Positions 9,849-56,825 of a DNA stretch of 64,000 nt are shown piece after piece (the first letter of the stretch is position 1; every line of letters begins with the position of its first letter). The position numbers and the translations under genes were made by a program. This stretch comes from a virus. The stretch lies in IMG/VR virus record IMGVR_UViG_3300029267_006021. One strand, given 5' to 3'. Below the pieces are notes generated by a model. That model had not been told where the DNA came from and ran no database searches. It saw only the letters and a program-made list of their open reading frames with translations.

Positions 9849-10065
9849 CTAGTCAATCCGTTTATACTGGCAAAAAATCACTGACCTATTTTGCTTTTTA
9901 ACTAACTCAGGAAATTCCTTCTGGGCCATCCTCCTCATTTCCTTCCTAAACAAAGAGATTTCTTCTTTCGTGAAGTTTTTTGATTAGCAAATAAATTTTA
10001 GTCTTCACAGATATTTACCAACTAATCCAATTGATTATACAAAATTAGTTAATTATGTACTGATG

Positions 10066-38113: not shown

Positions 38114-38879
38114 GTTTTTGATATACGGCGTACGGATCCTTTCCTTCGGGGCTATAGAAACAAGCGCGATTCTGATCTATAAACTTCGAAGATTTAATTA
38201 AACCATAACCATCCATATCAAAACAAACGACCCAATTAGCAGTCTTTAATTGTTCCATATGATTTGGTGTAATTTCAATAGAACCAAGACCAACTATATT
38301 TTTATAACCACTCTCATTAAAAGCAACATAATCAAGAAAACCTTCGCATAAAACCAGTTGTTGACCTTTGCTACATTTATGAAGACCAAAAGTAGCTTGC
38401 TGACCAATAGGAAATAACCACTTGAAACTATTTTGAACAATCTGAGGGTTGAGTATACGAAAGCCTATCTCATTAATCTTGCCTTCCCAATCCCTACTAG
38501 GAATTACCATAAATTGAGCATTAAAAATACTTACACCGGCAGATTTCCAAAAATTAAGCTGCTCTTTGTTAAATAAAACATAAGCATTTTCAAAACAATT
38601 CTGTTCTGAAACAGTAAACAAACCTACTTCATATTTATCAAGAATCTTAGAAGAAAGACCACGAAAATCTATATTTTTAGATTGTTTACGCGAAGTTATA
38701 CAAGATTTAATGAAATCTTCAGATTGTTGGAATGAAAAAGATAGTTTACAGTGCTTTTGAACGTGTTTTTGGCCATAAAGACCTATAATAGAACGAGTGA
38801 GAGGTTTAGCAATCAAATCTATACCATCATAGGCCAATTTATAACGAAATGCTTGCCGATCTATAAATGCATGTCTCAT
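38082..38879 (-). CDS. TOPRIM-domain, DnaG primase-like protein
   Basis: VLCEGFLDY, CFDMDGYG (DxD), GKDP; no N-terminal zinc-binding domain visible. Confidence 0.75.
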   Translation of the reverse strand: MRHAFIDRQAFRYKLAYDGIDLIAKPLTRSIIGLYGQKHVQKHCKLSFSFQQSEDFIKSCITSRKQSKNIDFRGLSSKILDKYEVGLFTVSEQNCFENAYVLFNKEQLNFWKSAGVSIFNAQFMVIPSRDWEGKINEIGFRILNPQIVQNSFKWLFPIGQQATFGLHKCSKGQQLVLCEGFLDYVAFNESGYKNIVGLGSIEITPNHMEQLKTANWVVCFDMDGYGLIKSSKFIDQNRACFYSPEGKDPYAVYQKHGKVDLVFIE

Positions 38880-38884
38880 GCAAC

Positions 38885-38893
38885 ATTATACAA
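38885..38893 (-). promoter_or_regulatory. Sigma70-like -10 box (TTGTATAAT), probably a leaderless transcript
   Basis: TATAAT ends about 6 nt before the ATG at 38879; the same 9-mer recurs at 10034, 44480, 47574 and 55147. Confidence 0.5.
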
Positions 38894-46537: not shown

Positions 46538-46900
46538 TTAGATATTTTTGAATGAATTGGTATTAGACCACCCAAAAGGATAAGCTTTTGCTTCCGGCAA
46601 CGCAGCCAAGATGTTCTGAACCCCTGATTTATTAAGGCTGTGTACCCATATCCTGGGAGGTTTAAAATGAGGATTTAATTCAAGCCATTGGGCTACTGCA
46701 TAACCAGTCCCTACCCCAGATTCAACCATTTCTTTGCCCCCGAGATCATGATCAAGCCATAACTCATCCCATTGTTTTTCCTGAAGTTGTTCTATACAAT
46801 CAGTAACAGTATCAACTATAACTACTGTACTTCCAATGAATTTCTGCCGAAATGCTTTGACACGTTCTGGATTATCTTCGAGTATTAGAATCTGGGCCAT
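46538..46900 (-). CDS. Cyclic-phosphate-processing receiver-like domain protein (cREC)
   Basis: ILILEDNPER, LWLDHDLG, TGYAVAQWL, VHSLN pattern. Confidence 0.75.
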   Translation of the reverse strand: MAQILILEDNPERVKAFRQKFIGSTVVIVDTVTDCIEQLQEKQWDELWLDHDLGGKEMVESGVGTGYAVAQWLELNPHFKPPRIWVHSLNKSGVQNILAALPEAKAYPFGWSNTNSFKNI

Positions 46901-46936: not shown

Positions 46937-47488
46937 TCAATCAACCAAATTAACAATCACTTTTCTATTCTTACTTAGCACATAAAAATGACTATTTAAA
47001 TGCCCTTCAGGGAAGAGATCTAATCTACAAACCATAACAGATGACCAAAGTATGGCCATAAAACCATATTTAATAAGAGAAGGACTCATAATTAAATCGA
47101 GTACATCCCTTCCAAATCTTCTAATGTCTGAATAGATCTTAGGGGTGAAAACACAAGCAATAACTCGTTCATCTTTTTCTTCGATTTTAGCAAAAACATC
47201 TGATAAATTGTCTGGAGTGAGGGTTTTTAACTTCTGCTTCATAACAATATCATTGTCGGATATGCTTATTCGAACCTTGATTAAATCAAGAAAATCTGGT
47301 GCTAAAATATCTAAAGGCCAAACAAATTGCTCTGAGTTAGTTTTAAGTCTTAAAATTAACTCAGAGTTGCTTGGAATCTTTTCGACTAATTCATTCTTTT
47401 GTAATTGACGTGCTTGAGCAGGATATAGATCAATAAGTTCAGTAAGATTTGGTGCTAAAAGTTTAATTTTTGTGCTCGTGTTAGACAT
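46937..47488 (-). CDS. Truncated paralogue of the major capsid protein
   Basis: LSDVFAKIEEKDERVIACVFTPKIYSDIRRFGRDVLD aligns ungapped with MCP LADAFALIERHDLRVARLFFNARDYTDVRKFGRDILD. Confidence 0.75.
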   Translation of the reverse strand: MSNTSTKIKLLAPNLTELIDLYPAQARQLQKNELVEKIPSNSELILRLKTNSEQFVWPLDILAPDFLDLIKVRISISDNDIVMKQKLKTLTPDNLSDVFAKIEEKDERVIACVFTPKIYSDIRRFGRDVLDLIMSPSLIKYGFMAILWSSVMVCRLDLFPEGHLNSHFYVLSKNRKVIVNLVD

Positions 47489-47834
47489 GGATAAGGCCTT
47501 CTAAAATAAGACGAAGTTATCTCACCTAACTAGGAGGCGGTCTAAAATCTTAACCAAACTTTGGTTAGTGCTAATTATACAAAGTGGGGTTAGTATAAGT
47601 TTGATGTTTTCACTTTAGGGTCTCCTTTCTCTGATGTCTTAACTGATCTATTTTTTGTACCCAGCATTGGGAGTGAATATTTCTTTATCTAATGTTTCTC
47701 TTATTTCTCCCATCGCCCACAATTTGCTTTCGCCTGCCCTCTGGCACATCAATCCAACAAAAGCATTCGCCGTCGCCGGAAGCACGACTCCTGAAAACTA
47801 TTACGTTTTCCATCTTAACTCTCCTCTCCTACTG

Positions 47835-48062
47835 TTAAATTCCCCTTAGTGTCTGCTGATATGCAAGATTCTCCAAGCGCTCATCCTCCAGGGACTTCCG
47901 TGCAAGGTTAAGCCCATGTAGGATCAGCCGCTTCCTCTGGTGCTCTTTCGAGCAACAAGCGCAATCGTAGCCACCATAAAGAAGGTAGACCCTTGCAGAT
48001 TCAAGATCGCTCCATGTTAGTGCTGTCTTCATTGTACTTTTCCCTACAGTAGGTTTGGCCAC
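47835..48062 (-). CDS. Hypothetical protein
   Basis: Co-oriented small ORF in the GC-richer island. Confidence 0.45.
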   Translation of the reverse strand: MAKPTVGKSTMKTALTWSDLESARVYLLYGGYDCACCSKEHQRKRLILHGLNLARKSLEDERLENLAYQQTLRGI

Positions 48063-48241
48063 ACATCAGGAGCCTGACTCATTTTAGCCTGAATGTTGCG
48101 TCGTACCCTGTCAATGACTGGCCCTGGACCAGTCCGACGTCGAATCTCATCAATGGTACGAATCCTTCCACAAGAACGACATTGCCATAAATCGCCCCAC
48201 GCTTTCTCCCACTGGATTTCTCCGCATTCGCATTCGTTCAT
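48044..48241 (-). CDS. Small zinc-ribbon protein
   Basis: CECG...CRSCG; GAGG RBS. Confidence 0.55.
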   Translation of the reverse strand: MNECECGEIQWEKAWGDLWQCRSCGRIRTIDEIRRRTGPGPVIDRVRRNIQAKMSQAPDVWPNLL

Positions 48242-48275
48242 TGCACTTTACCTCAACTGTTCAAGTAAACTGCCT

Positions 48276-48485
48276 TCATTGCTTTTCGAACATTTTGTCT
48301 TTTGCCTGCTGCATGTCATCCAAAATAATTAAGATGTCCTCACAGACGGCAATCATCAGGTTTCGATTTTCTGCGGGAAGATCCTCCCACGGCACAGCCG
48401 TTTCGGGCCGGGTTTTGTACCCAAACTCCGGAGCCCGCTCTTCGTATCTCTTATGGAAAAACCTTGCCATTCGAACTGCGTTCAT
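48276..48485 (-). CDS. Hypothetical phage protein
   Basis: AGGAGAG RBS before MNAVRM; FHKRYEERAPEFGYKTR...LMIAVC. Confidence 0.65.
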   Translation of the reverse strand: MNAVRMARFFHKRYEERAPEFGYKTRPETAVPWEDLPAENRNLMIAVCEDILIILDDMQQAKDKMFEKQ

Positions 48486-48579
48486 CTTCACTCTCCTATT
48501 ATCTTGCAACGTCTCTTGAAACCTGATATCATACTCCTGTCAACCAAACCCGGGCCTCAGCATCGTGCTGGGGCCTTCT

Positions 48580-48912
48580 TTATTGCTCTCGTACAGAACT
48601 GCCTTGCTCTTTTACGGAAGTGTATTGCAGATCCGCTGCAAACACAGCAAACGTGCGAGCCATCTCCAGAAGACGAGACTTGCACCTCTCATAAATTACC
48701 GGTAGATCGTCGTCATTGTCCCATGTGTCATCGTTCTCCGAGTCCCAAATGACCTCGCGCCCCAACATGATTTGGAAGTAACCAGAACATGGGGCGCACA
48801 AGTAGGCGAACATTGGTGCCTCTCCGTTTACAGCAAAAAGATTCTCTTCGAATTCGTCCGCGAGAAGGTCAACTGCTCGCTCCACTTCCTTGCGTAGTTC
48901 TTTGTATGCCAT
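48580..48912 (-). CDS. Hypothetical protein
   Basis: GGAGGAG RBS; 110 aa. Confidence 0.65.
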   Translation of the reverse strand: MAYKELRKEVERAVDLLADEFEENLFAVNGEAPMFAYLCAPCSGYFQIMLGREVIWDSENDDTWDNDDDLPVIYERCKSRLLEMARTFAVFAADLQYTSVKEQGSSVREQ

Positions 48913-48958
48913 TACTCCTCCGTTGAACTGCCTTGCTTTTCGTCTGTTTTGTCTTCTT

Positions 48959-49351
48959 TCACTCTTTTGGTAAACTGCTCAATTGTGCTTTGGCCCAGGT
49001 CTTCCACTTGGCTGCGTGGCGTTTGAGTTTTGCCCTGGCCTCGGTCGCGGTCATGCCGTGGTCCCGACGGAAGCGGCGCCAGAGGGTGCGCCTATAATTC
49101 GTGTTGTCGCCTGGGGTCTGGATGTCATTCATGGCCCGGATGTACCACCACCCATCACCGTCCAGGATGGAACATCCATCCGGATCGCCGTGTCTGTTCG
49201 CCGGACACCTCCTGCAATGATAAACGAACCCAGCCTCCGCCCGAAGACCACACACGCACGGACGACAAACGCTCTTACCCCGTGCGATAGCTTCGTATGC
49301 TGGCACCAATCGTTCTAGCACCAGTTCTGCAAACTTTTGTGTCTTAGTCAT
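48959..49351 (-). CDS. Hypothetical Cys-rich protein
   Basis: AAGGA RBS; 130 aa. Confidence 0.55.
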   Translation of the reverse strand: MTKTQKFAELVLERLVPAYEAIARGKSVCRPCVCGLRAEAGFVYHCRRCPANRHGDPDGCSILDGDGWWYIRAMNDIQTPGDNTNYRRTLWRRFRRDHGMTATEARAKLKRHAAKWKTWAKAQLSSLPKE

Positions 49352-49511
49352 TTTTTTATCCTTTTTTTAGTGCGAAAAGTTAAATAAGAGCCGGTGAGCG
49401 GTGGCGTTTTCGCCGGCGCCATATCGCCCCATCGCCACGGAGCACCCCTCGCCGGGGCAAGCACTCCATTTCGTCCGGCCAAGGGACTGGTGAGGAGCAA
49501 ACCAGGCCGAA

Positions 49512-49634
49512 AGGCGCGGGCCGGATTTGAACCGGCTTGAGAGGTTGCTTCCACTATGCAACATGCTGGGGCAAAAATCCCTGTTCTCTCGGGCTGCAAT
49601 TAATGCCCGCGTGTTCCCATCACGCCGCCGCGCC
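49512..49634 (-). ncRNA. tRNA-like structured RNA with a non-canonical anticodon arm and an expanded branched variable region
   Basis: 7 bp acceptor stem GGCGCGG/CCGCGCC, D-like arm GCGTG/CACGC, canonical T-arm GCCGG-TTCAAAT-CCGGC; no encoded CCA. Confidence 0.65.
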
Positions 49635-49659
49635 ATCTTCACTCTCCTGTCAAATTGCC

Positions 49660-49944
49660 TTATTCTCCTGTTATTGCATGATGGGCAGCGCCTGCTCTAC
49701 ACTTTGCACAATCACACCGCCATTCGAGTAAGGCTTTCAATCCTTCTTTGGTCATTTTCCACGACAAGGATTCTGGATATTGATGTCCGCATTTGACACA
49801 TTCCCACAGCAGCCTTGCACCACTACGTTCAGCCGCGCATTCTACGTCTATATCTGCTGGATCATTGGACAATCGCCGTAGGCGCATCAGCACTTCAAGC
49901 ATCGCCGGATTCGGGTATTTACAACGATCAGGTTTACTTGGCAT
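49660..49944 (-). CDS. Hypothetical Cys-rich protein
   Basis: AAGGAG RBS before MPSKPD at 49944; CVKCG, CDCAKC. Confidence 0.55.
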   Translation of the reverse strand: MPSKPDRCKYPNPAMLEVLMRLRRLSNDPADIDVECAAERSGARLLWECVKCGHQYPESLSWKMTKEGLKALLEWRCDCAKCRAGAAHHAITGE

Positions 49945-50173
49945 TTGTTTGCTCCTTACTGAGAATGGATTTATACGGATCAGGATACTCCTGCTCGTAT
50001 TCCGCAAGCATTTCACGAGCGTGCGTTGCCGCATTTTTTGCACGTTCGATTACATCTTCCATGAAGACGCAGGTACCGTAAGGCCCAATATCCTCCAGGG
50101 CCTCAATCGTTTCCGATAGGATCGTCTTGAGGCGAATGCGCGGATCCTGGCGTCTTCTGTGTTTCAGCATCAA
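49934..50173 (-). CDS. Hypothetical protein
   Basis: Co-oriented ORF overlapping the next start. Confidence 0.5.
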   Translation of the reverse strand: MMLKHRRRQDPRIRLKTILSETIEALEDIGPYGTCVFMEDVIERAKNAATHAREMLAEYEQEYPDPYKSILSKEQTNAK

Positions 50174-50203
50174 GTTTCCGTTTCAATTGGACCGTATCTA
50201 TTA

Positions 50204-50893
50204 CTACGTTACGATTGTGCAGCACCTTTCTTTGATTGCATGCCGCAAGATTTGCAATTGTGGCGGGTAAATATCGTCATCGTGTAAATCAACGTCCATG
50301 CCGTGTTCTTTGCTGAGGTAGTCCGAAATCAAAACAGCCAATGTTGACTTTCCAGAACCAACGATGCCGCTGATTGTGATATGAAGATTGGACTGTCTTT
50401 CTATTGTTCTTTCCTTCGTTGAATTGAGCAGATCCAATTGCTGCTTGAGTTCAGATACTTCTTGGCGCAGACGGTCACGCTCCCATCCGATTGCACAAAT
50501 TTTATCTACGATGTGTGTATCACTAACTTTGCCCAGGAAACCGTCTGCAACTTCGTGTGCCTTCTTCAGCCATGTTTCAGCTCGATCTTTTTCGCGGACT
50601 ATCTGTGCTATCGGACGGCCCAGACTTTTGTCTATGATATCGGCGGTATACAACGTTGATTCCCACGTGTTATCTCCGTACTCCGCGCAAAGTTGTCGCA
50701 GTACTTTGATCGTTTCTTCTCGTTCGATAAGAAGCGCGGCCGCTTTGCGCATTTCCTTGTCCGTTCCGGGCTCAATCATATCCAAATGACGTACCGCGTT
50801 GACCATACACTGCAACCATGCGGCGCGTTCGCCTAATTCGAATTTAAGTTCCTCGCGGGCCATCTGTTCTTCATTTGGTTCATCCGGCATCAT
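50204..50893 (-). CDS. Hypothetical coiled-coil protein ending in a P-loop fragment
   Basis: AGGAGG RBS before MMPDEP at 50893; GIVGSGKST near the C-terminus. Confidence 0.6.
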   Translation of the reverse strand: MMPDEPNEEQMAREELKFELGERAAWLQCMVNAVRHLDMIEPGTDKEMRKAAALLIEREETIKVLRQLCAEYGDNTWESTLYTADIIDKSLGRPIAQIVREKDRAETWLKKAHEVADGFLGKVSDTHIVDKICAIGWERDRLRQEVSELKQQLDLLNSTKERTIERQSNLHITISGIVGSGKSTLAVLISDYLSKEHGMDVDLHDDDIYPPQLQILRHAIKERCCTIVT

Positions 50894-51191
50894 CTTCCTC
50901 CTGCTTGAAGTGGTTGAAGCCTTCCATCGTGATATGTAGTTTCCAGTGAAAAGATAATTGCATGTCTTTATCCATGAATGGCACAAAAGGACAATCTGGG
51001 GGAATACGGCGAGCAGCGTACACTACTCCATCTTCTCCGACAAGTTCAAATTCACGGACGTATACTCTTTCACGTGGCATTGGGAAGGTTACATCGTCCG
51101 TGATTATGGCATCGTTCTTGTGAACTACGACGGCATGTACTGCTTCGGATTTGAGATTATCGTCTTTGTTTAACCGGATGTAGTATTTCAT
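50880..51191 (-). CDS. Hypothetical protein
   Basis: AAGGAGG RBS; 103 aa. Confidence 0.65.
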   Translation of the reverse strand: MKYYIRLNKDDNLKSEAVHAVVVHKNDAIITDDVTFPMPRERVYVREFELVGEDGVVYAARRIPPDCPFVPFMDKDMQLSFHWKLHITMEGFNHFKQEEDDAG

Positions 51192-51210
51192 AGTAGCCTC
51201 CTTCAGTCTG

Positions 51211-51510
51211 TCAGTACCGATAGATATGCTTAACTATGAATGGGTAATTTATTGATTGCTTTTTCTCTGAAGAGTTAGATTCAACAAGCCACTCAACATG
51301 TTCCCTGATGTCCGACTCTACGCAATTATCATGATTACTCATTTCAGAATTGATATTGCTACCCCATATACGAATAACATCAACACGCCATGTTTCATTG
51401 TTAACCTCAATGGACAGTTTCTTATCGCCACACCATGCCTCAATTAAATAATCTGAAGTTATTGTTTTGGCGTTATATTGTCTAAGCATTTGCAATATCG
51501 AATGCTTCAT
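51211..51510 (-). CDS. Hypothetical protein
   Basis: AAGGA RBS; 99 aa. Confidence 0.55.
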   Translation of the reverse strand: MKHSILQMLRQYNAKTITSDYLIEAWCGDKKLSIEVNNETWRVDVIRIWGSNINSEMSNHDNCVESDIREHVEWLVESNSSEKKQSINYPFIVKHIYRY

Positions 51511-51552
51511 TTGTTCAGTTCCTTAGTTTTGTCTGTCTTGCTCTCCCGATAT

Positions 51553-51744
51553 TTAGTAATAAAGGAAGTTTCCTTCTCTCGGTTGGGGTTTGGGGTCCGG
51601 ATGTCTATTACGAGCACTTTTGATAATATTTTCCATGAAATTCCGGTCGGTTAGATCATATAGAAGATCAATAAATTTACCGATACAACCCGTCTTAATT
51701 AGGAATTGTGCAAATATTTTCATGTCTTTGGCATTTTCCATCAT
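51553..51744 (-). CDS. Hypothetical protein
   Basis: GGAGG RBS; 63 aa. Confidence 0.5.
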   Translation of the reverse strand: MMENAKDMKIFAQFLIKTGCIGKFIDLLYDLTDRNFMENIIKSARNRHPDPKPQPREGNFLYY

Positions 51745-51883
51745 TCCCTCCCTTAATCTTGCAAATCCAATAAACTGCCTTGTTCAACACTTGCGATTTC
51801 GTAGCAATTGAAGGTGTTCTCGGCTTTCTGCGCCCGTTCGCACGGCTCGTCTGTATCAAGGATTCGCGTTTCCATGGTTCCAC
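51695..51883 (-). CDS. Hypothetical small basic protein
   Basis: Co-oriented ORF only. Confidence 0.3.
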   Translation of the reverse strand: MEPWKRESLIQTSRANGRRKPRTPSIATKSQVLNKAVYWICKIKGGNDGKCQRHENICTIPN

Positions 51884-52040
51884 CTTTCACATGAATCTCA
51901 CCACGCTACTGAATGGTAGAGCAGGAAGCAACCCAACTTAGGATAGCCTTGATCTTTGGTTTCTATGCCTGTGCCGGTCACTGGCCCTGGGTACTCGTCC
52001 CCGACTACATAGACCTTTTGATCTCCCAAACGAAAGCAAT

Positions 52041-52265: not shown

Positions 52266-53456
52266 TCACCAGATGCCTTGTTTAAGCGCTTGTACGTTAA
52301 TTTTTGAGAGGTCGTAGTTTGAGGTGACATCGTATGGTGATTCGTTTGGTTTGAGTTTGAGTTTTCCTCTGAGACTTCGAATGTCTAGGGCAGGAATAAG
52401 AAAGAGAGCGAGGATTTTTCTATAAGATCTATTTAGACCAACAAAAAAGTAATTATCTGCGAGTTCTCTTGTTTTGATTTCTTTTCGCTTAAAATTAAAA
52501 CAACCATTATTATCAACAGCACTCGTCTTAACATCTATTTTACCCAAAAAAGGCTCAATAAAGTCATAAGGTGAATCAATACCTTTTTCTATAAGCATAT
52601 CTTTGGCTTGTGGGTATAACTTGAAAAAGATTAGTTCTCCTAAACGGCCTTTCCATAATGGAATCATTTCCTGTAATTTAGTTAAATCATAAGCCCACTT
52701 AGGGTGCACTTTAAATAGCTTTTCAAGGTAAAGATTGAGGTTGTTGAGGTCATAGAGATGAGTAACTTCAAAGGGTTGTAACCACAAAAGAGCATGATCT
52801 TCTACTACTGTTTGAGCATCATAACAAACAACCATAGAACCGCTCAAAAAGATTTTTCGAGGAATAAGCCAAATCTTCGCTATTTCTATTCTTCCTTTTT
52901 CGAAACCTATACAAAATAAATAGTCACAATCTTTTTTAGCATGTTTTTGAAAAGGCCAAGATTTAGAACCGAGGCGTTCTACAGGTTGACAAGTTTTAAC
53001 ATCTACCCGTTTTAAAATAGAATGATCAAAATCATAAGAGGATGTATCACTTTCTTCTAAATTTAAATCCCGACTATCTGGATAAAGATACAAAAATAGA
53101 GTTTCACCAATACGTCCGAAAAACTTTTCATTTTTTCGCATTTCAGAAAGACGTTGTAAAAGAATTTCTTCTGAATATTTTTGGAATGTGGGTCTATATT
53201 TTTGTAAGCGTTCTACAACCTCATCAAAACCTTTAATTTCGCATTTAGGACAAAGATATCTAGAGTTCTTATAAGAATCATCAAAGAATTCTTTTTGGCA
53301 CTCTTTACAAATTTTCTTTCTCTTCTGTTGCTGAGATTCTTTCTGAGCCAATTTTGAACATTCAAAACTACAACGGAATTGTTTCGAATGCTTAGGTTTA
53401 AATTTCTTGCCACATTGTGGACAAATCATTTCTAGATATTGGTCACTTTTCTTCAT
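52266..53456 (-). CDS. Zinc-finger protein with tandem PD-(D/E)xK-like nuclease domains (putative homing endonuclease)
   Basis: N-terminal CxxC repeats; two copies of GR(I/L)GE...YDF...(V/I)DVKT...DxxFxxG. Confidence 0.65.
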   Translation of the reverse strand: MKKSDQYLEMICPQCGKKFKPKHSKQFRCSFECSKLAQKESQQQKRKKICKECQKEFFDDSYKNSRYLCPKCEIKGFDEVVERLQKYRPTFQKYSEEILLQRLSEMRKNEKFFGRIGETLFLYLYPDSRDLNLEESDTSSYDFDHSILKRVDVKTCQPVERLGSKSWPFQKHAKKDCDYLFCIGFEKGRIEIAKIWLIPRKIFLSGSMVVCYDAQTVVEDHALLWLQPFEVTHLYDLNNLNLYLEKLFKVHPKWAYDLTKLQEMIPLWKGRLGELIFFKLYPQAKDMLIEKGIDSPYDFIEPFLGKIDVKTSAVDNNGCFNFKRKEIKTRELADNYFFVGLNRSYRKILALFLIPALDIRSLRGKLKLKPNESPYDVTSNYDLSKINVQALKQGIW

Positions 53457-53466
53457 TTGTTATTCC

Positions 53467-55128
53467 TTAGTCCAAAGATTTACATGCAGAACATTTTGAA
53501 TGCTTAGCATTTTTAGTTAAATTATCCCCATGAAAAATTTTTCCGCACTTTCTACAGAAACGATAATTTACATGTTCTTTTCTTGGAATCATATTCTTTA
53601 GCAAGAAATCAACTAGATCTTTTGAACAAACCAAACAATATAAAGGAGTATCTTTAGTATACCAAATTACTTCTTTGTTACAACGAGAACAAATTGGTAC
53701 TGGACGGGTTTTGAGTTGGCGGCAGGTGGGGCATTTGCGGAATTGACCTTTGCCTCTTAGTTCTTCAGGTACTTCAAATGACTCTCCACACCAAGTGCAG
53801 ATTTTCTTTTGGGGGCCTTTATCTAGACGTTGTGAAACATAATTTTCTTTGTAATGTTCTTTAAAAGATTTATCTTTACATTCTGGAGAACAATATTGTG
53901 AGTTGCAAGATTGGCGGATGCTAACCCTATAAGGTTTATTGCAGTATTTGCAGTATTTTGTAGTGAGACGTTCTGACATTGGTGTATTCCTTAATTCTTG
54001 ACAAGTTAAACAATATCTAGAAGAGTTCGCATAAGAATCATCGTAGAAAGATTGTCCACATTGTTTACAGATTTTATTGCGTTTGGCTTTGTTTTGTTCT
54101 TTCTTTCGAGCGTCGTGACCTGTGCGAGAACATTCTTTAGAGCAATAAATGCTATGGCTTGCGTTATTTGTCTCAAACTCTTTCTTACAATCAGGGTGTT
54201 GGCAGATTCGGGTCTCAAAAATCTTACCTTCTGCAAAACGTCTTTTAACAGTGACAATCTGTGGTTTTGCTATCTTGCGAGAAGGTGTTCCATTCAGATA
54301 GTCTTGAGGAATTTTATACATGAGATCTTTGGTGACATATTGTCTTAAATGGTCATAAAAATCCTCTGATGAGTCAGATAAAATTCTGAATTTACAAAAT
54401 AACTTACCAGATTCTAAAGTAGAGATATTCCCAAAACAAGTATTAAGATTGTATTTTTCCCATAAAATCTTAACAATCTTTGTTTTAATTTCTTTAGAAA
54501 TAAGGAGTGATGTCCCAATAACAAAAGAGCTATTATCAAGTTCTCCATCATCTAGATACCAAAAGGCTAGATGATCTAAACTTAAACGTTTTAATAAGTC
54601 GTCTGGAAACACTTTAATAGCTGGGCCTTTTTCTTGTTCCAAATAGTATAATTCGCGATAATGATTAAAAATAGGATGTCCTATAGTTTTAAATCCTTTG
54701 CATGAATATTGAGTATTAGAAACCTTTTCAACTTTAATCTTAGCAAGCCCCTGTCGAGTATTCTCTGTTAAAAAAGCATCAAGAATTTGAGCTTTGTATC
54801 GTAGATATTCAAGTTGCCCAGTAGAATGTCCACATCCATAATAACAAAGACCTGAAGAAGTAATACCAATCGTGCTATCGCCTAAAAGTGTACCCTCAAT
54901 AAAACTTTGTTGAGATTCTGTTAATTTAATATCGCCCACGACCTTTTTCCATCTCTTAGATCGACGGATATTCCACTTATGTCGGGAACTATAAATATGA
55001 TCATGGTTGTAACCCAGACGTTTAGCAATTTCGTTATCTGTTAAATTTTCCTCTTCAACTAGATATCTTAATAATTCATAGGTGAGTTGAGTTTTGTGTT
55101 CTTTCTTTGATTTTGCTTTTTCATACAT
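53467..55128 (-). CDS. LAGLIDADG (type 2) homing endonuclease with N-terminal HTH and C-terminal zinc-finger array
   Basis: TDNEIAKRLG HTH; FIEGTLLGDSTI and LAFWYLDDG LAGLIDADG motifs; many CxxC pairs. Confidence 0.85.
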   Translation of the reverse strand: MYEKAKSKKEHKTQLTYELLRYLVEEENLTDNEIAKRLGYNHDHIYSSRHKWNIRRSKRWKKVVGDIKLTESQQSFIEGTLLGDSTIGITSSGLCYYGCGHSTGQLEYLRYKAQILDAFLTENTRQGLAKIKVEKVSNTQYSCKGFKTIGHPIFNHYRELYYLEQEKGPAIKVFPDDLLKRLSLDHLAFWYLDDGELDNSSFVIGTSLLISKEIKTKIVKILWEKYNLNTCFGNISTLESGKLFCKFRILSDSSEDFYDHLRQYVTKDLMYKIPQDYLNGTPSRKIAKPQIVTVKRRFAEGKIFETRICQHPDCKKEFETNNASHSIYCSKECSRTGHDARKKEQNKAKRNKICKQCGQSFYDDSYANSSRYCLTCQELRNTPMSERLTTKYCKYCNKPYRVSIRQSCNSQYCSPECKDKSFKEHYKENYVSQRLDKGPQKKICTWCGESFEVPEELRGKGQFRKCPTCRQLKTRPVPICSRCNKEVIWYTKDTPLYCLVCSKDLVDFLLKNMIPRKEHVNYRFCRKCGKIFHGDNLTKNAKHSKCSACKSLD

Positions 55129-55293: not shown

Positions 55294-56181
55294 TTATCTT
55301 GTGATGTCAAGCCTGGTGAGTGCGAATGGGTTATATGCCCCGATCCCTAAATTCTCGAATATCGAAAATCCAATTGTTCTCGCCTTAGGATCATCTGCAC
55401 TTAGAACCGTGAGTTCCGTACGAACGGGAATGCGGCCAAAGAACTCGGGCTCGGCACACACGTACACGCGTCCCACCGGCACTATCCTAGACACCATCAA
55501 CTGGGCTCCCCAAAGGTTTGCCTGCAACCCAGTCTTCAGCAAGGTCGCCTGGCTCTCGATATCCAAGATATCACGGCCAAACTTCCTCACATCAGTGTAA
55601 TCTCTCGCGTTGAAGAACAACCTCGCAACGCGAAGATCATGACGCTCGATCAGAGCGAAGGCATCTGCCAGCACATCGCCCGTGATTGGGGCAGCCACTG
55701 GGATATCAGGATTAGGAGCCAACCCACCAAAGCCAGCCGCCTGAATCGCATCCATGATGGCGAAGACCCTGGTATCTTCCTCCGCCTGAACCTCGCTCTT
55801 CGCCAAGTCCTGTGCTCTCTCGATCAGGTCATATCTGCGTTCCTTGACCTGAGTCAGCGGGATTTCAGGGTTGGATGCAATCTCAAAGAGAGGAAAGATC
55901 ACTCTCTTTGGCTTCTGGATTGCCAGCACGTTTTCACCCTCTTCCCCTATGACGTATGCGACTGCATCTGGGTCCCTGTCATAAATAGGAAGAGCACCAT
56001 CTGGCAGTTGCTCGACCAAAAAGGTCTTTCTGCCAATACTCGTATAGTCCCGACGAGCCCTAAGAGGCTGAATCATCGAAGCAGCCAACTTCTGTCGACC
56101 TGCAGCGGTCTTGATCAACTCCCCGATGATCTGACTCCTGGCCTCGTTGCTAAGGACTTCTCCATGTCCTTCGCCTGCCAT
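55294..56181 (-). CDS. HK97-fold major capsid protein
   Basis: Last gene of the protease-scaffold-decoration-capsid run, followed by a terminator; E-loop/spine pattern (RKTFLVEQLPDG, AEEDTRVF, LWGAQLMVS); AAGGAGG RBS before ATG at 56181 (ORF track 56217). Confidence 0.82.
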   Translation of the reverse strand: MAGEGHGEVLSNEARSQIIGELIKTAAGRQKLAASMIQPLRARRDYTSIGRKTFLVEQLPDGALPIYDRDPDAVAYVIGEEGENVLAIQKPKRVIFPLFEIASNPEIPLTQVKERRYDLIERAQDLAKSEVQAEEDTRVFAIMDAIQAAGFGGLAPNPDIPVAAPITGDVLADAFALIERHDLRVARLFFNARDYTDVRKFGRDILDIESQATLLKTGLQANLWGAQLMVSRIVPVGRVYVCAEPEFFGRIPVRTELTVLSADDPKARTIGFSIFENLGIGAYNPFALTRLDITR

Positions 56182-56216
56182 CTGTAAATCCTCCTTTAAC
56201 TTTGCTATCGCATCCA

Positions 56217-56825
56217 TTAGACGCGAAGAGCAATCCTCATCGAGGTGTCCGCTGTCGTCGGCACCCTGGTCAGGATGGCCACTGGCTGATTGTTGGCTGC
56301 AGCGATGATTCCATTTGTTACCGTTGGTGGATAATTAGTGAGATCATCAGGAGCAACGTTTGTCAGCAGACCCGATCTGCTGTCACAATACAGCCTATCT
56401 CCAGCAGTATAAGTAAGAGTAGTTGCAGTGTGAACACCATAGGTATCCCTGGCATTCGTTTCATAGTACCTAACCTCGTATGTGCCCATGCTGTCGACAT
56501 ACGGGGCCCGTCCACTCGCTGCTGCCGAGGTGGACTGGAAAGCGTACCCAGCCGCATCATTGATGAACAGACCTAATGGTGTCTCAGAAAGATCCGGACT
56601 TGCAGCCGGAGTAGGTCCACCAATCAAATCCGTACCCTTAACCACTGCAACGCTACCAGCAAGCACGCCTGCCGGAGTCGCAGCTGAAAGGGTGGAATTG
56701 ATGGTAGTCCCAGCCGTGAAATTCACTCTCGTGAATCCATTGGCATCCAAGAAACCAAGGCTGTTCCGGTGCCCGACATACAGAATGCGGAGTCCGTAAT
56801 CGGCACCCTGAACGCTGACTACCAT
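56217..56825 (-). CDS. Putative head decoration/cement protein
   Basis: 202 aa, A/T/G-rich, immediately upstream of the MCP; GDRLY...GLLT motif. Confidence 0.65.
   Translation of the reverse strand: MVVSVQGADYGLRILYVGHRNSLGFLDANGFTRVNFTAGTTINSTLSAATPAGVLAGSVAVVKGTDLIGGPTPAASPDLSETPLGLFINDAAGYAFQSTSAAASGRAPYVDSMGTYEVRYYETNARDTYGVHTATTLTYTAGDRLYCDSRSGLLTNVAPDDLTNYPPTVTNGIIAAANNQPVAILTRVPTTADTSMRIALRV

What the first reader, a model, noticed from the sequence alone, without database searches (positions are those of the whole stretch)
46937..47488. Truncated copy of the phage's own major capsid protein in the early accessory region: candidate capsid decoy
Seen: near-ungapped similarity to the MCP A-domain (LSDVFAKIEEKDERV...YSDIRRFGRDVLD...LIKYGFMAILWSS versus LADAFALIERHDLRV...YTDVRKFGRDILD...LLKTGLQANLWGA), and KNELVEKIPSNS versus KTFLVEQLPDGA. 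Most of the E-loop region and the C-terminal strands are missing, and the gene follows a TATAAT box rather than the late motif. Established: several defence systems (CapRel SJ46, Lit) and capsid-hijacking satellites recognise major capsid proteins. Inference: an assembly-incompetent mimic made early to titrate capsid sensors, interfere with competing phages or modulate assembly. With the 43536 gene it forms a small paralogue family.
Basis: partly seen in the sequence, partly recalled or inferred. Interest (0 to 1): 0.8.

Follow-up and report, generated by a model that had tools for sequence, protein, structure and literature searches.

The report
Cut-down capsid-protein copy, conserved accessory gene
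A large uncultured phage carries a small, conserved, separately regulated gene that keeps only the central "A" domain of its own capsid protein, so it cannot build a shell; it may mimic unassembled capsid protein, but its job is untested.

Summary
The main observation holds. ORF 46937-47488 (-) encodes a 183-aa protein. Residues 85-158 are homologous to the A-domain of the phage-G-type HK97 major capsid protein (MCP) at 55294-56217 (44% identity over 68 aa, E 4e-16; profile-profile probability 98.7%).

An AlphaFold model (pLDDT 85) shows residues 60-183 as a reduced HK97 fold. The N-arm, the E-loop and the last ~40 MCP residues have no counterpart.

It is not a decaying copy. Six homologues of 176-182 aa exist, dN/dS is about 0.2-0.5, and the family-specific N-terminal 57 residues are its best-conserved part.

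New here: in the four copies where it could be examined, the gene carries its own TTGTATAAT-type -10 box and an ~84-nt structured leader, with covariation, that pairs an anti-SD with the Shine-Dalgarno sequence.

About 50 other small proteins carry the same A-domain core with other extensions. They sit in non-structural contexts.

Two sub-claims fail: the N-terminal "KNELVEKIPSNS" similarity to the MCP, and paralogy with the 43536 gene.

The decoy, assembly-modulator and interference readings remain untested. A 2026 preprint reports that Avs7/8/10 bind the A-domain capsomer interface, which makes the decoy idea testable.

This scan has already noted free-standing A-domain genes in other huge phages.

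The parts
46937..47488 (-). CDS of the 183-aa MCP-derived protein (P0001), stop codon included
   Evidence: ORF list and translation. Homologues of 176-182 aa at 37-70% identity. dN/dS 0.16-0.46.
47309..47488 (-). Residues 1-60: family-specific, mostly helical N-terminal region, the best-conserved part of the core family
   Evidence: 16 of 26 invariant columns lie in residues 1-57. No relation to the MCP N-terminus. No Pfam or Atlas match. Model pLDDT 48-78.
46940..47308 (-). Residues 61-183: reduced HK97 fold (short helix, A-domain, terminal beta-hairpin)
   Evidence: AF2 pLDDT about 90 over this part. VIA-align Z up to 9.7, 292 chains at Z>=5. In an unbiased scan of 48,161 chains all top 50 are HK97-fold proteins. 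BFVD best hit is phage G gp27, E 4.6e-5.
47015..47236 (-). Residues 85-158: A-domain core with clear sequence homology to MCP residues 173-246
   Evidence: BLASTP, hhalign, family profile against PDB 6wkk E 1e-21. Shared conserved residues, MCP numbering: D185 F187 E191 V197 D209 R211 K212 G214 R215 D216 D219 G230 W236 A238.
47489..47570 (-). Conserved structured 5' leader: hairpin 1, then a long hairpin in which an anti-SD (GCCUCCU) pairs with the Shine-Dalgarno
   Evidence: The same element lies upstream of four divergent homologues. RNAalifold gives 20 pairs, 8 with compensatory changes. 93.7% of cells pair, against 30-55% in slid controls. The covariance model finds only these copies. No Rfam family matches.
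47574..47582 (-). TTGTATAAT, a sigma-70-type -10-like box
   Evidence: Five copies in the window, about 1 expected, all on the coding strand; four were checked and lie just upstream of a gene: primase, tnpA, LAGLIDADG and this gene. Conserved as TTGTATATT or TTGTAAAAT upstream of homologues.
55294..56217 (-). Major capsid protein of the phage (parent family). The true start is probably Met13 at 56181, giving 295 aa
   Evidence: phrog_2522 E 1e-48. 6wkk gp27 E 1e-60. 77% identity to a 485-kb uncultured phage and 37% to phage G. Relatives and the ENA gene call are 295 aa.
46538..46900 (-). Downstream gene, 36 nt after the stop and probably co-transcribed: cREC_REC receiver-domain protein
   Evidence: PF20274 E 5e-16. 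No terminator-like site between the two genes. Co-transcription is inferred.

Best explanation
The gene encodes a working, non-structural accessory protein made of two parts. The first is a family-specific N-terminal helical region of about 57 residues. The second is a cut-down HK97 fold that keeps the A-domain, including the two helices which in HK97-fold shells form the subunit contacts within a capsomer. It has lost the N-arm, the E-loop and the C-terminal strands that tie capsomers into a lattice, so it cannot build a shell.

It is transcribed from its own host-type promoter. It is translated through a leader that hides the ribosome-binding site, so its synthesis is probably gated.

The most likely mechanism is inferred, not shown. 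The protein acts as a soluble mimic of the capsomer-forming face of unassembled MCP and competes for whatever binds that face. The favoured partner is a host immune sensor of the kind reported to grip this interface (Avs7/8/10, Dsr1), which would make the protein a decoy or sponge.

Shown: homology, fold, truncation, selection, accessory and mobile status, promoter-like box and leader structure. Inferred: timing, mimicry and the partner.
For: Homology and fold.

The segments best conserved between the short proteins and the MCP are the two A-domain helices and the RKFGRD loop. PMC8346489 states that the two main A-domain helices form the major interfaces between subunits of a facet.

Selection: intact ORFs of 176-183 aa at 37-70% identity and dN/dS 0.16-0.46.

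Accessory status. Synteny with relatives whose MCP is 95% identical ends exactly at the MCP stop codon, and they carry no copy in the next 10 kb. Phage G, Tunturi_5 and LR745208 have only the MCP. Homologues sit after a ribonucleotide reductase gene, among DNA-metabolism genes or among small ORFs.

Own promoter-like box and a conserved leader that sequesters the SD.

The short proteins have long branches while the MCPs have very short ones, as expected for conflict genes.

[quoted passage not shown] CapRel also touches an A-domain loop (PMC9712102).

The next gene encodes a cREC_REC domain.
Against: There is no experimental or expression data, and the host is unknown. A free A-domain that binds a STAND sensor might activate it instead of blocking it. 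The N-terminal domain is the most conserved part of the family, and a plain decoy model does not explain it. Other A-domain-only proteins carry a nuclease-like domain, coiled-coil-like tails or tandem copies, which fits an adaptor role at least as well. The link to cREC_REC is not conserved in the homologues' loci.
Confidence: 0.3

Rival explanations
1. MCP-binding modulator. The retained A-domain face docks onto MCP subunits. This could cap monomers to stop premature assembly or to hide the interface from sensors. It could also poison capsomers of co-infecting related phages, because a subunit without an E-loop or P-domain would end lattice growth.
For: The interface helices and a charged cluster are retained. 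The MCP family is extremely conserved across huge phages, about 77-95% identity, so one binder could act on many relatives. The gated translation suggested by the leader would suit a protein that is harmful if mistimed. From general knowledge: satellites such as PICIs encode MCP-like or scaffold-like proteins that redirect helper capsid assembly.
Against: A poison aimed at relatives would also hit the phage's own, nearly identical MCP. Several MCP-invariant residues are lost (H193, R199, Q223, Q239). There is no data on binding.
Confidence: 0.25
2. Self-assembling ring or small scaffold, like the Family 4 'A-domain encapsulins'. The A-domains would form pentamer- or hexamer-like discs, and the N-terminal domain would recruit or stabilise a partner enzyme.
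For: PMC8346489 describes A-domain-only HK97 proteins in archaea and proposes facet-like assembly and chaperoning of operon partners. Some relatives lie beside enzymes: P0008 after a ribonucleotide reductase gene, P0019 after a glycosyltransferase gene, and P0004 near a glycan gene cluster. An earlier scan note (e1-5596889) reports such a gene among sugar-enzyme genes.
Against: No conserved partner gene occurs across the loci. No PF08967 match. The gene has its own promoter-like box and leader and is not the second gene of an enzyme operon.
Confidence: 0.15
3. Minor virion component, for example a vertex, plug or internal head protein.
For: It is derived from the MCP. In one relative the homologue appears to lie directly after a 295-aa gene that follows a 202-aa gene, the same lengths as the window's MCP and its upstream neighbour (inferred from lengths only, no DNA available).
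Against: It lacks every lattice-forming element. It is absent from phage G, Tunturi_5, LR745208 and the sampled DNA of the closest relatives. It has a non-structural promoter type and non-structural neighbours.
Confidence: 0.08
4. Neutral remnant of a partial MCP duplication, or of homing-endonuclease-driven rearrangement next to the MCP gene.
For: Two homing-endonuclease-like genes lie directly downstream of the MCP, and the region is rearrangement-prone.
Against: All seven core-family proteins have the same length (176-183 aa); the five examined at DNA level are intact ORFs, with dN/dS well below 1. The N-terminal domain and the non-coding leader, which shows compensatory changes, are both conserved. 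The A-domain is only 44% identical to the resident MCP and does not group with it in the tree.
Confidence: 0.02

Closest known systems
Phage G gp27-type HK97-fold major capsid protein (PDB 6WKK; phrog_2522; Pfam PF25209 on relatives)
   Same: Clear sequence homology over the A-domain core (family profile against 6wkk, E 1e-21) and the same fold for residues 60-183. Shared conserved residues are D185, F187, E191, V197, R211, K212, G214, R215, D216, G230 and W236.
   Different: It is 183 aa against 295-307 aa. It has no N-arm, no E-loop and no C-terminal strands, and it carries an unrelated conserved N-terminal region. It lies outside the head module and is patchily distributed. It evolves much faster than the MCP.
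Family 4 'A-domain encapsulins' (Pfam PF08967/DUF1884; PDB 2PK8; Andreas and Giessen 2021, PMC8346489)
   Same: Both are free-standing proteins reduced to the A-domain of the HK97 fold. Neither has a known function. A retained capsomer-type interface has been proposed for both.
   Different: Family 4 proteins are cellular (hyperthermophilic archaea and a few Bacteroidetes), about 100 aa, and are the second gene of enzyme operons. This protein is phage-encoded and closely related in sequence to a phage MCP. It has an extra N-terminal domain and its own promoter-like box and leader. It has no PF08967 match.
MCP paralogues with structural roles, such as T4 gp24 vertex protein (PDB 1YUE)
   Same: Both arose by duplication and divergence of the MCP within a phage lineage. 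1YUE appears among the fold matches.
   Different: gp24 is a complete HK97-fold subunit that occupies vertices and is encoded in the head module. This protein lacks the parts needed to sit in a lattice.
Capsid sensors of bacterial immunity (Avs7/8/10 and Dsr1, preprint 10.64898/2026.01.04.697583; CapRelSJ46, PMC9712102)
   Same: They recognise the part of the MCP that this protein retains, the penton/hexon-forming A-domain interface.
   Different: They are host proteins and only the hypothetical targets. No phage-encoded MCP-fragment inhibitor of them turned up in the literature searches run here.

Membership tests
HK97-fold major capsid protein (phage G gp27 type) | Sequence homology to the family | tested here: met
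   Homology covers the A-domain core only: BLASTP E 4e-16, hhalign probability 98.7%, profile against 6wkk E 1e-21, phrog_2522 E 0.019.
HK97-fold major capsid protein (phage G gp27 type) | Complete fold with N-arm, E-loop, P-domain and A-domain, able to tile a shell | tested here: not met
   Only MCP 173-246 aligns by sequence. The model shows one short helix, the A-domain and one hairpin. N-terminal comparison gives probability 0.2%.
HK97-fold major capsid protein (phage G gp27 type) | Position in the head module and presence in all related phages | tested here: not met
   The gene lies 7.8 kb from the MCP in a variable island. It is absent from phage G, Tunturi_5 and LR745208 and from the 10 kb downstream of the MCP in the nearest relatives.
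Family 4 A-domain encapsulins (PF08967) | Match to Pfam PF08967 / DUF1884 | tested here: not met
   No Pfam family at E <= 1.
Family 4 A-domain encapsulins (PF08967) | Protein reduced to the HK97 A-domain | tested here: inconclusive
   An A-domain with a few flanking elements is present. However, there is an extra conserved region of about 57 residues, and 2PK8 is not among the listed fold matches, which does not exclude similarity.
Family 4 A-domain encapsulins (PF08967) | Two-gene operon downstream of a partner enzyme | tested here: not met
   In the window the gene follows its own promoter-like box and leader. No neighbour is conserved across loci except an unknown upstream gene shared by L008 and L010.
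Anti-defence decoy or sponge | Binds and neutralises a host immune sensor or its signal | not testable with these tools
   The host and its sensors are unknown. Only circumstantial support exists.

The most novel reading that the evidence does not exclude
The protein is a translationally gated immune decoy. It would be a free A-domain, held by a dedicated N-terminal domain, that soaks up Avs7/8/10/Dsr1-type capsid sensors before the real MCP appears. It would be one branch of a broad, undescribed class of capsid-derived counter-defence proteins in huge phages, and its conserved SD-sequestering leader would be a new regulatory RNA.
Probability: 0.2. Interest if true: 0.85.

Novelty: new variant of a known kind. 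Interest (0 to 1): 0.6.

Why it matters
Several bacterial immune sensors are now reported to recognise the conserved capsomer-forming face of the capsid A-domain. Phages cannot easily mutate that face. A phage-encoded soluble copy of just that face would be a simple way round the problem, and none was found in the literature searches run here. If the protein instead binds MCP, it would be a phage-encoded regulator or poison of HK97 assembly. Either way, the roughly 50 related small proteins show that huge phages repeatedly reuse a piece of their capsid protein outside the capsid. The conserved leader adds an uncatalogued regulatory RNA with a clear, testable mechanism.

Tried and rejected
- Complex prediction of MCP with P0001 returned 'no answer' (score 0.00). 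This is not evidence either way.
- No RNA holder was listed among the public runs that hold this DNA, so expression timing could not be examined.
- P0003 (gene 43536): homologue search found nothing, the Atlas feature search gave no usable lead, and the single-sequence fold was unusable (pLDDT 36).
- The N-terminal domain has no Pfam match, no Atlas lead and no relation to the MCP N-terminus.
- The IMG/VR scan found no further relatives of the core family. The metagenome scan returned only a contig already in hand.
- Rfam has no family for the leader. The covariance model found no further copies in 194 kb of held sequence.
- The candidate late motifs AATTAGTTT and TYCACTAAT are not enriched above shuffles.
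- PDB 2PK8 (Family 4 encapsulin) did not appear in the listed fold matches, and PF08967 did not match.
- DNA of the two contigs where the homologue P0004 appears to follow the MCP directly could not be fetched, so that synteny rests on gene lengths and one Pfam label.
- The A-domain tree (76 columns) is too poorly resolved to say whether the short families arose once or many times.

Full report
**Where the window comes from.** The window is part of an 87.6-kb IMG/VR viral record (CheckV completeness 45%). An ENA contig of 194 kb carries the same genes. The DNA occurs in sediment and seawater metagenomes. The major capsid protein (MCP) is of the phage-G type. It is 77% identical to that of a 485-kb uncultured phage, 52% to Tunturiibacter phage Tunturi_5 and 37% to Bacillus phage G gp27. 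It matches phrog_2522 at E 1e-48 and the solved gp27 chain 6wkk at E 1e-60.

**The observation.** ORF 46937-47488 (-) encodes 183 aa (P0001). BLASTP against the MCP (55294-56217, P0002) gives 30/68 identities with one gap, P0001 90-156 against MCP 178-245, E 4e-16. Against all 214 stop-to-stop ORFs of the window the MCP is the only significant partner (E 5e-14).
- A profile of the short family hits 6wkk at E 1e-21.
- hhalign of the family profiles gives probability 98.7%, E 1.6e-16, over P0001 85-158 and MCP 173-246.

The similarity is therefore real and confined to the A-domain core.

The N-terminal profiles do not align (probability 0.2%).

The claimed paralogy with the 43536 gene is also not supported:
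- no hit to P0001;
- a borderline hit to the MCP (E 0.013 in the ORF set; hhalign probability 8%);
- not found by the A-domain profile;
- no homologues;
- an unusable fold model.

**Fold.** With a 64-row alignment, AlphaFold2 gives mean pLDDT 85, about 90 or more from residue 60 onward.
- Foldseek against viral models ranks phage G gp27 first (E 4.6e-5).
- VIA-align gives Z up to 9.7 (106-123 aligned residues, rmsd about 4 Å) against HK97-fold capsid and encapsulin chains, with 292 chains at Z >= 5.
- In a Foldseek-independent scan of 48,161 chains, all 50 best matches are HK97-fold proteins.
- The ESM Atlas search again returns capsid clusters, plus a 142-aa viral cluster.

The model has one short helix (63-75), the A-domain (two helices at 92-103 and 116-122 plus the sheet) and a terminal hairpin (167-181). 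There is no counterpart of the N-arm, the E-loop or the last ~40 MCP residues. Such a protein cannot tile a shell. That last step is inference from established HK97 architecture.

**A selected gene, not debris.** Six further proteins of 176-182 aa share 37-70% identity over the full length (P0004-P0009).
- The five coding sequences available are all intact.
- Pairwise dN/dS is 0.16-0.46 where it can be estimated, with dS saturated.
- The best-conserved part is not the capsid-like part. It is residues 1-57, which hold 16 of the 26 invariant columns. This region has no detectable relatives.
- Within the A-domain core, the short proteins keep a set of residues that are also invariant in MCPs (D185 F187 E191 V197 D209 R211 K212 G214 R215 D216 D219 G230 W236 A238, MCP numbering). 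They have lost others (H193, R199, Q223, Q239).
- The conserved segments coincide with the two A-domain helices. PMC8346489 describes these as the main interfaces between subunits of a facet.

**Regulation (new here).** The gene is preceded by TTGTATAAT (47574-47582). This motif occurs five times in the window against about one expected, always on the coding strand. Four copies were checked and lie in front of the primase, tnpA and LAGLIDADG genes and this gene.

Between the box and the ATG lies an ~84-nt leader. It is conserved upstream of four homologues whose proteins are only 44-66% identical. Leader nucleotide identity (58-77%) equals or exceeds that of the coding region (50-71%).

RNAalifold predicts a first hairpin, then a long hairpin in which GCCUCCU pairs with the Shine-Dalgarno sequence. 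Eight of the 20 pairs show compensatory changes. On the model-based alignment, 93.7% of cells pair against 30-55% in slid controls, and 0 of 500 shuffles reach the observed values. The caveat is that there are only four distinct sequences and the structure was derived from them.

Single-sequence folds have z-scores of -1.9 to -4.4. No Rfam family matches, and no other copy exists in the held sequence. The unit that moves between genomes is therefore promoter, leader and gene. Translation is probably gated by SD sequestration; that is inferred.

**Genomic setting.** Synteny with the nearest relatives (MCP 95% identical) runs through the head module and stops exactly at the MCP stop codon. Their next 10 kb are unrelated and hold no copy of this gene.

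In the window, the stretch between the MCP and the primase holds:
- two homing-endonuclease-like genes;
- a block of raised G+C (0.45-0.51 against 0.32-0.38);
- this gene;
- a cREC_REC gene 36 nt downstream;
- an IS200/IS605 tnpA-tnpB pair.

In two contigs whose DNA could not be fetched, the homologue P0004 lies between genes of 202 and 295 aa and genes of 192 and 266 aa (Toprim_2). These match the window's MCP-flanking and primase-flanking genes by length. That suggests a compact arrangement, but it is unverified.

Other homologues follow a ribonucleotide reductase gene, sit alone among DNA-metabolism genes or lie among small ORFs. Phage G, Tunturi_5 and LR745208 contain only the MCP copy. 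The gene is therefore a mobile accessory gene, not a head-module component.

**A wider class.** An exhaustive HMMER search found 56 proteins. Most are complete small proteins (93-290 aa) that share only the A-domain core, joined to different extensions:
- coiled-coil-like tails;
- a weak GIY-YIG domain;
- a C-terminal cysteine-rich tail (CxxC motif);
- two tandem A-domains.

In the poorly resolved tree of the core, MCPs have branch lengths of 0.01-0.1 and the short proteins 0.2-1.4. This scan has already reported free-standing A-domain genes in other huge phages, so this is a recurring theme and not a one-off.

**Mechanism.** The following are shown: a selected, regulated, non-lattice-forming MCP derivative that retains the capsomer-interface helices. 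The rest is inference. I favour interface mimicry, with a host capsid sensor as the partner (confidence about 0.3). [quoted passage not shown] The family also shows the patchiness and fast divergence typical of conflict genes.

The rivals are:
- binding to MCP itself, as a cap, timer or poison (0.25);
- a ring-forming scaffold like Family 4 A-domain encapsulins (0.15);
- a minor virion protein (0.08);
- neutral debris (0.02).

The conserved N-terminal domain and the variety of fusions in the wider class are the main facts that the decoy model does not explain.

**Comparison with what is known.** By sequence this is a derivative of the phage-G-type MCP, but it fails the tests for being an MCP. 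By architecture it resembles Family 4 A-domain encapsulins (PMC8346489), but it fails their sequence and operon criteria. Literature searches found no description of phage-encoded A-domain-only proteins or of MCP-fragment decoys. I class it as a new variant of a known kind.

Noticed in passing
window 47489-47582 (-); L010:811-892; L008:2683-2766; L009:1499-1582: A conserved -10 box plus an ~84-nt leader RNA with two hairpins travels with the gene. The second hairpin pairs an anti-SD with the Shine-Dalgarno. Its inner stem is followed by a U-rich run, so attenuation is also possible. No Rfam family matches.
   Followed up: yes
window 52266-55128 (-): Two homing-endonuclease-like genes lie directly after the MCP gene: a 553-aa protein with LAGLIDADG and HNH-like parts, and a 396-aa HNH-like protein. 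Synteny with relatives breaks exactly at the MCP stop codon. The MCP gene may be their homing target.
   Followed up: partly
window 48000-52000: A block of raised G+C (0.45-0.51 against 0.32-0.38 for the backbone) holds small ORFs without family matches. It looks recently acquired.
   Followed up: no
window 46538-46900 (-): A 120-aa protein with a cREC_REC domain (PF20274, E 5e-16) is encoded 36 nt downstream of the target gene and is probably co-transcribed. This link is not seen in the loci of the homologues.
   Followed up: partly
window 38879-38893 (-): The primase-like (Toprim_2) gene starts 5 nt after a TTGTATAAT box, which suggests a leaderless or nearly leaderless mRNA. The same box precedes the tnpA (44480) and LAGLIDADG (55147) genes, and a fifth copy lies at 10034.
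   Followed up: partly
proteins P0011, P0025, P0019, P0012/P0016/P0017, P0033 (loci L030, L031): Other small phage proteins carry the same A-domain core in different architectures: two tandem A-domains, an N-terminal weak GIY-YIG domain, C-terminal coiled-coil-like tails, or a C-terminal cysteine-rich tail (CxxC motif).
   Followed up: partly
window 56181-56217 and 56217-56825 (-): The MCP ORF probably starts at Met13 (56181), giving the 295 aa seen in relatives. The 202-aa gene just upstream occupies the position of phage G's capsid decoration gene gp26. Homology was not tested.
   Followed up: no
L008:871-2642 and L010:3-791: Two homologues of the target gene share an upstream neighbour of unknown function, present as two tandem paralogues in L008 (46-49% identity between loci). 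It is absent from the window's genome record.
   Followed up: partly
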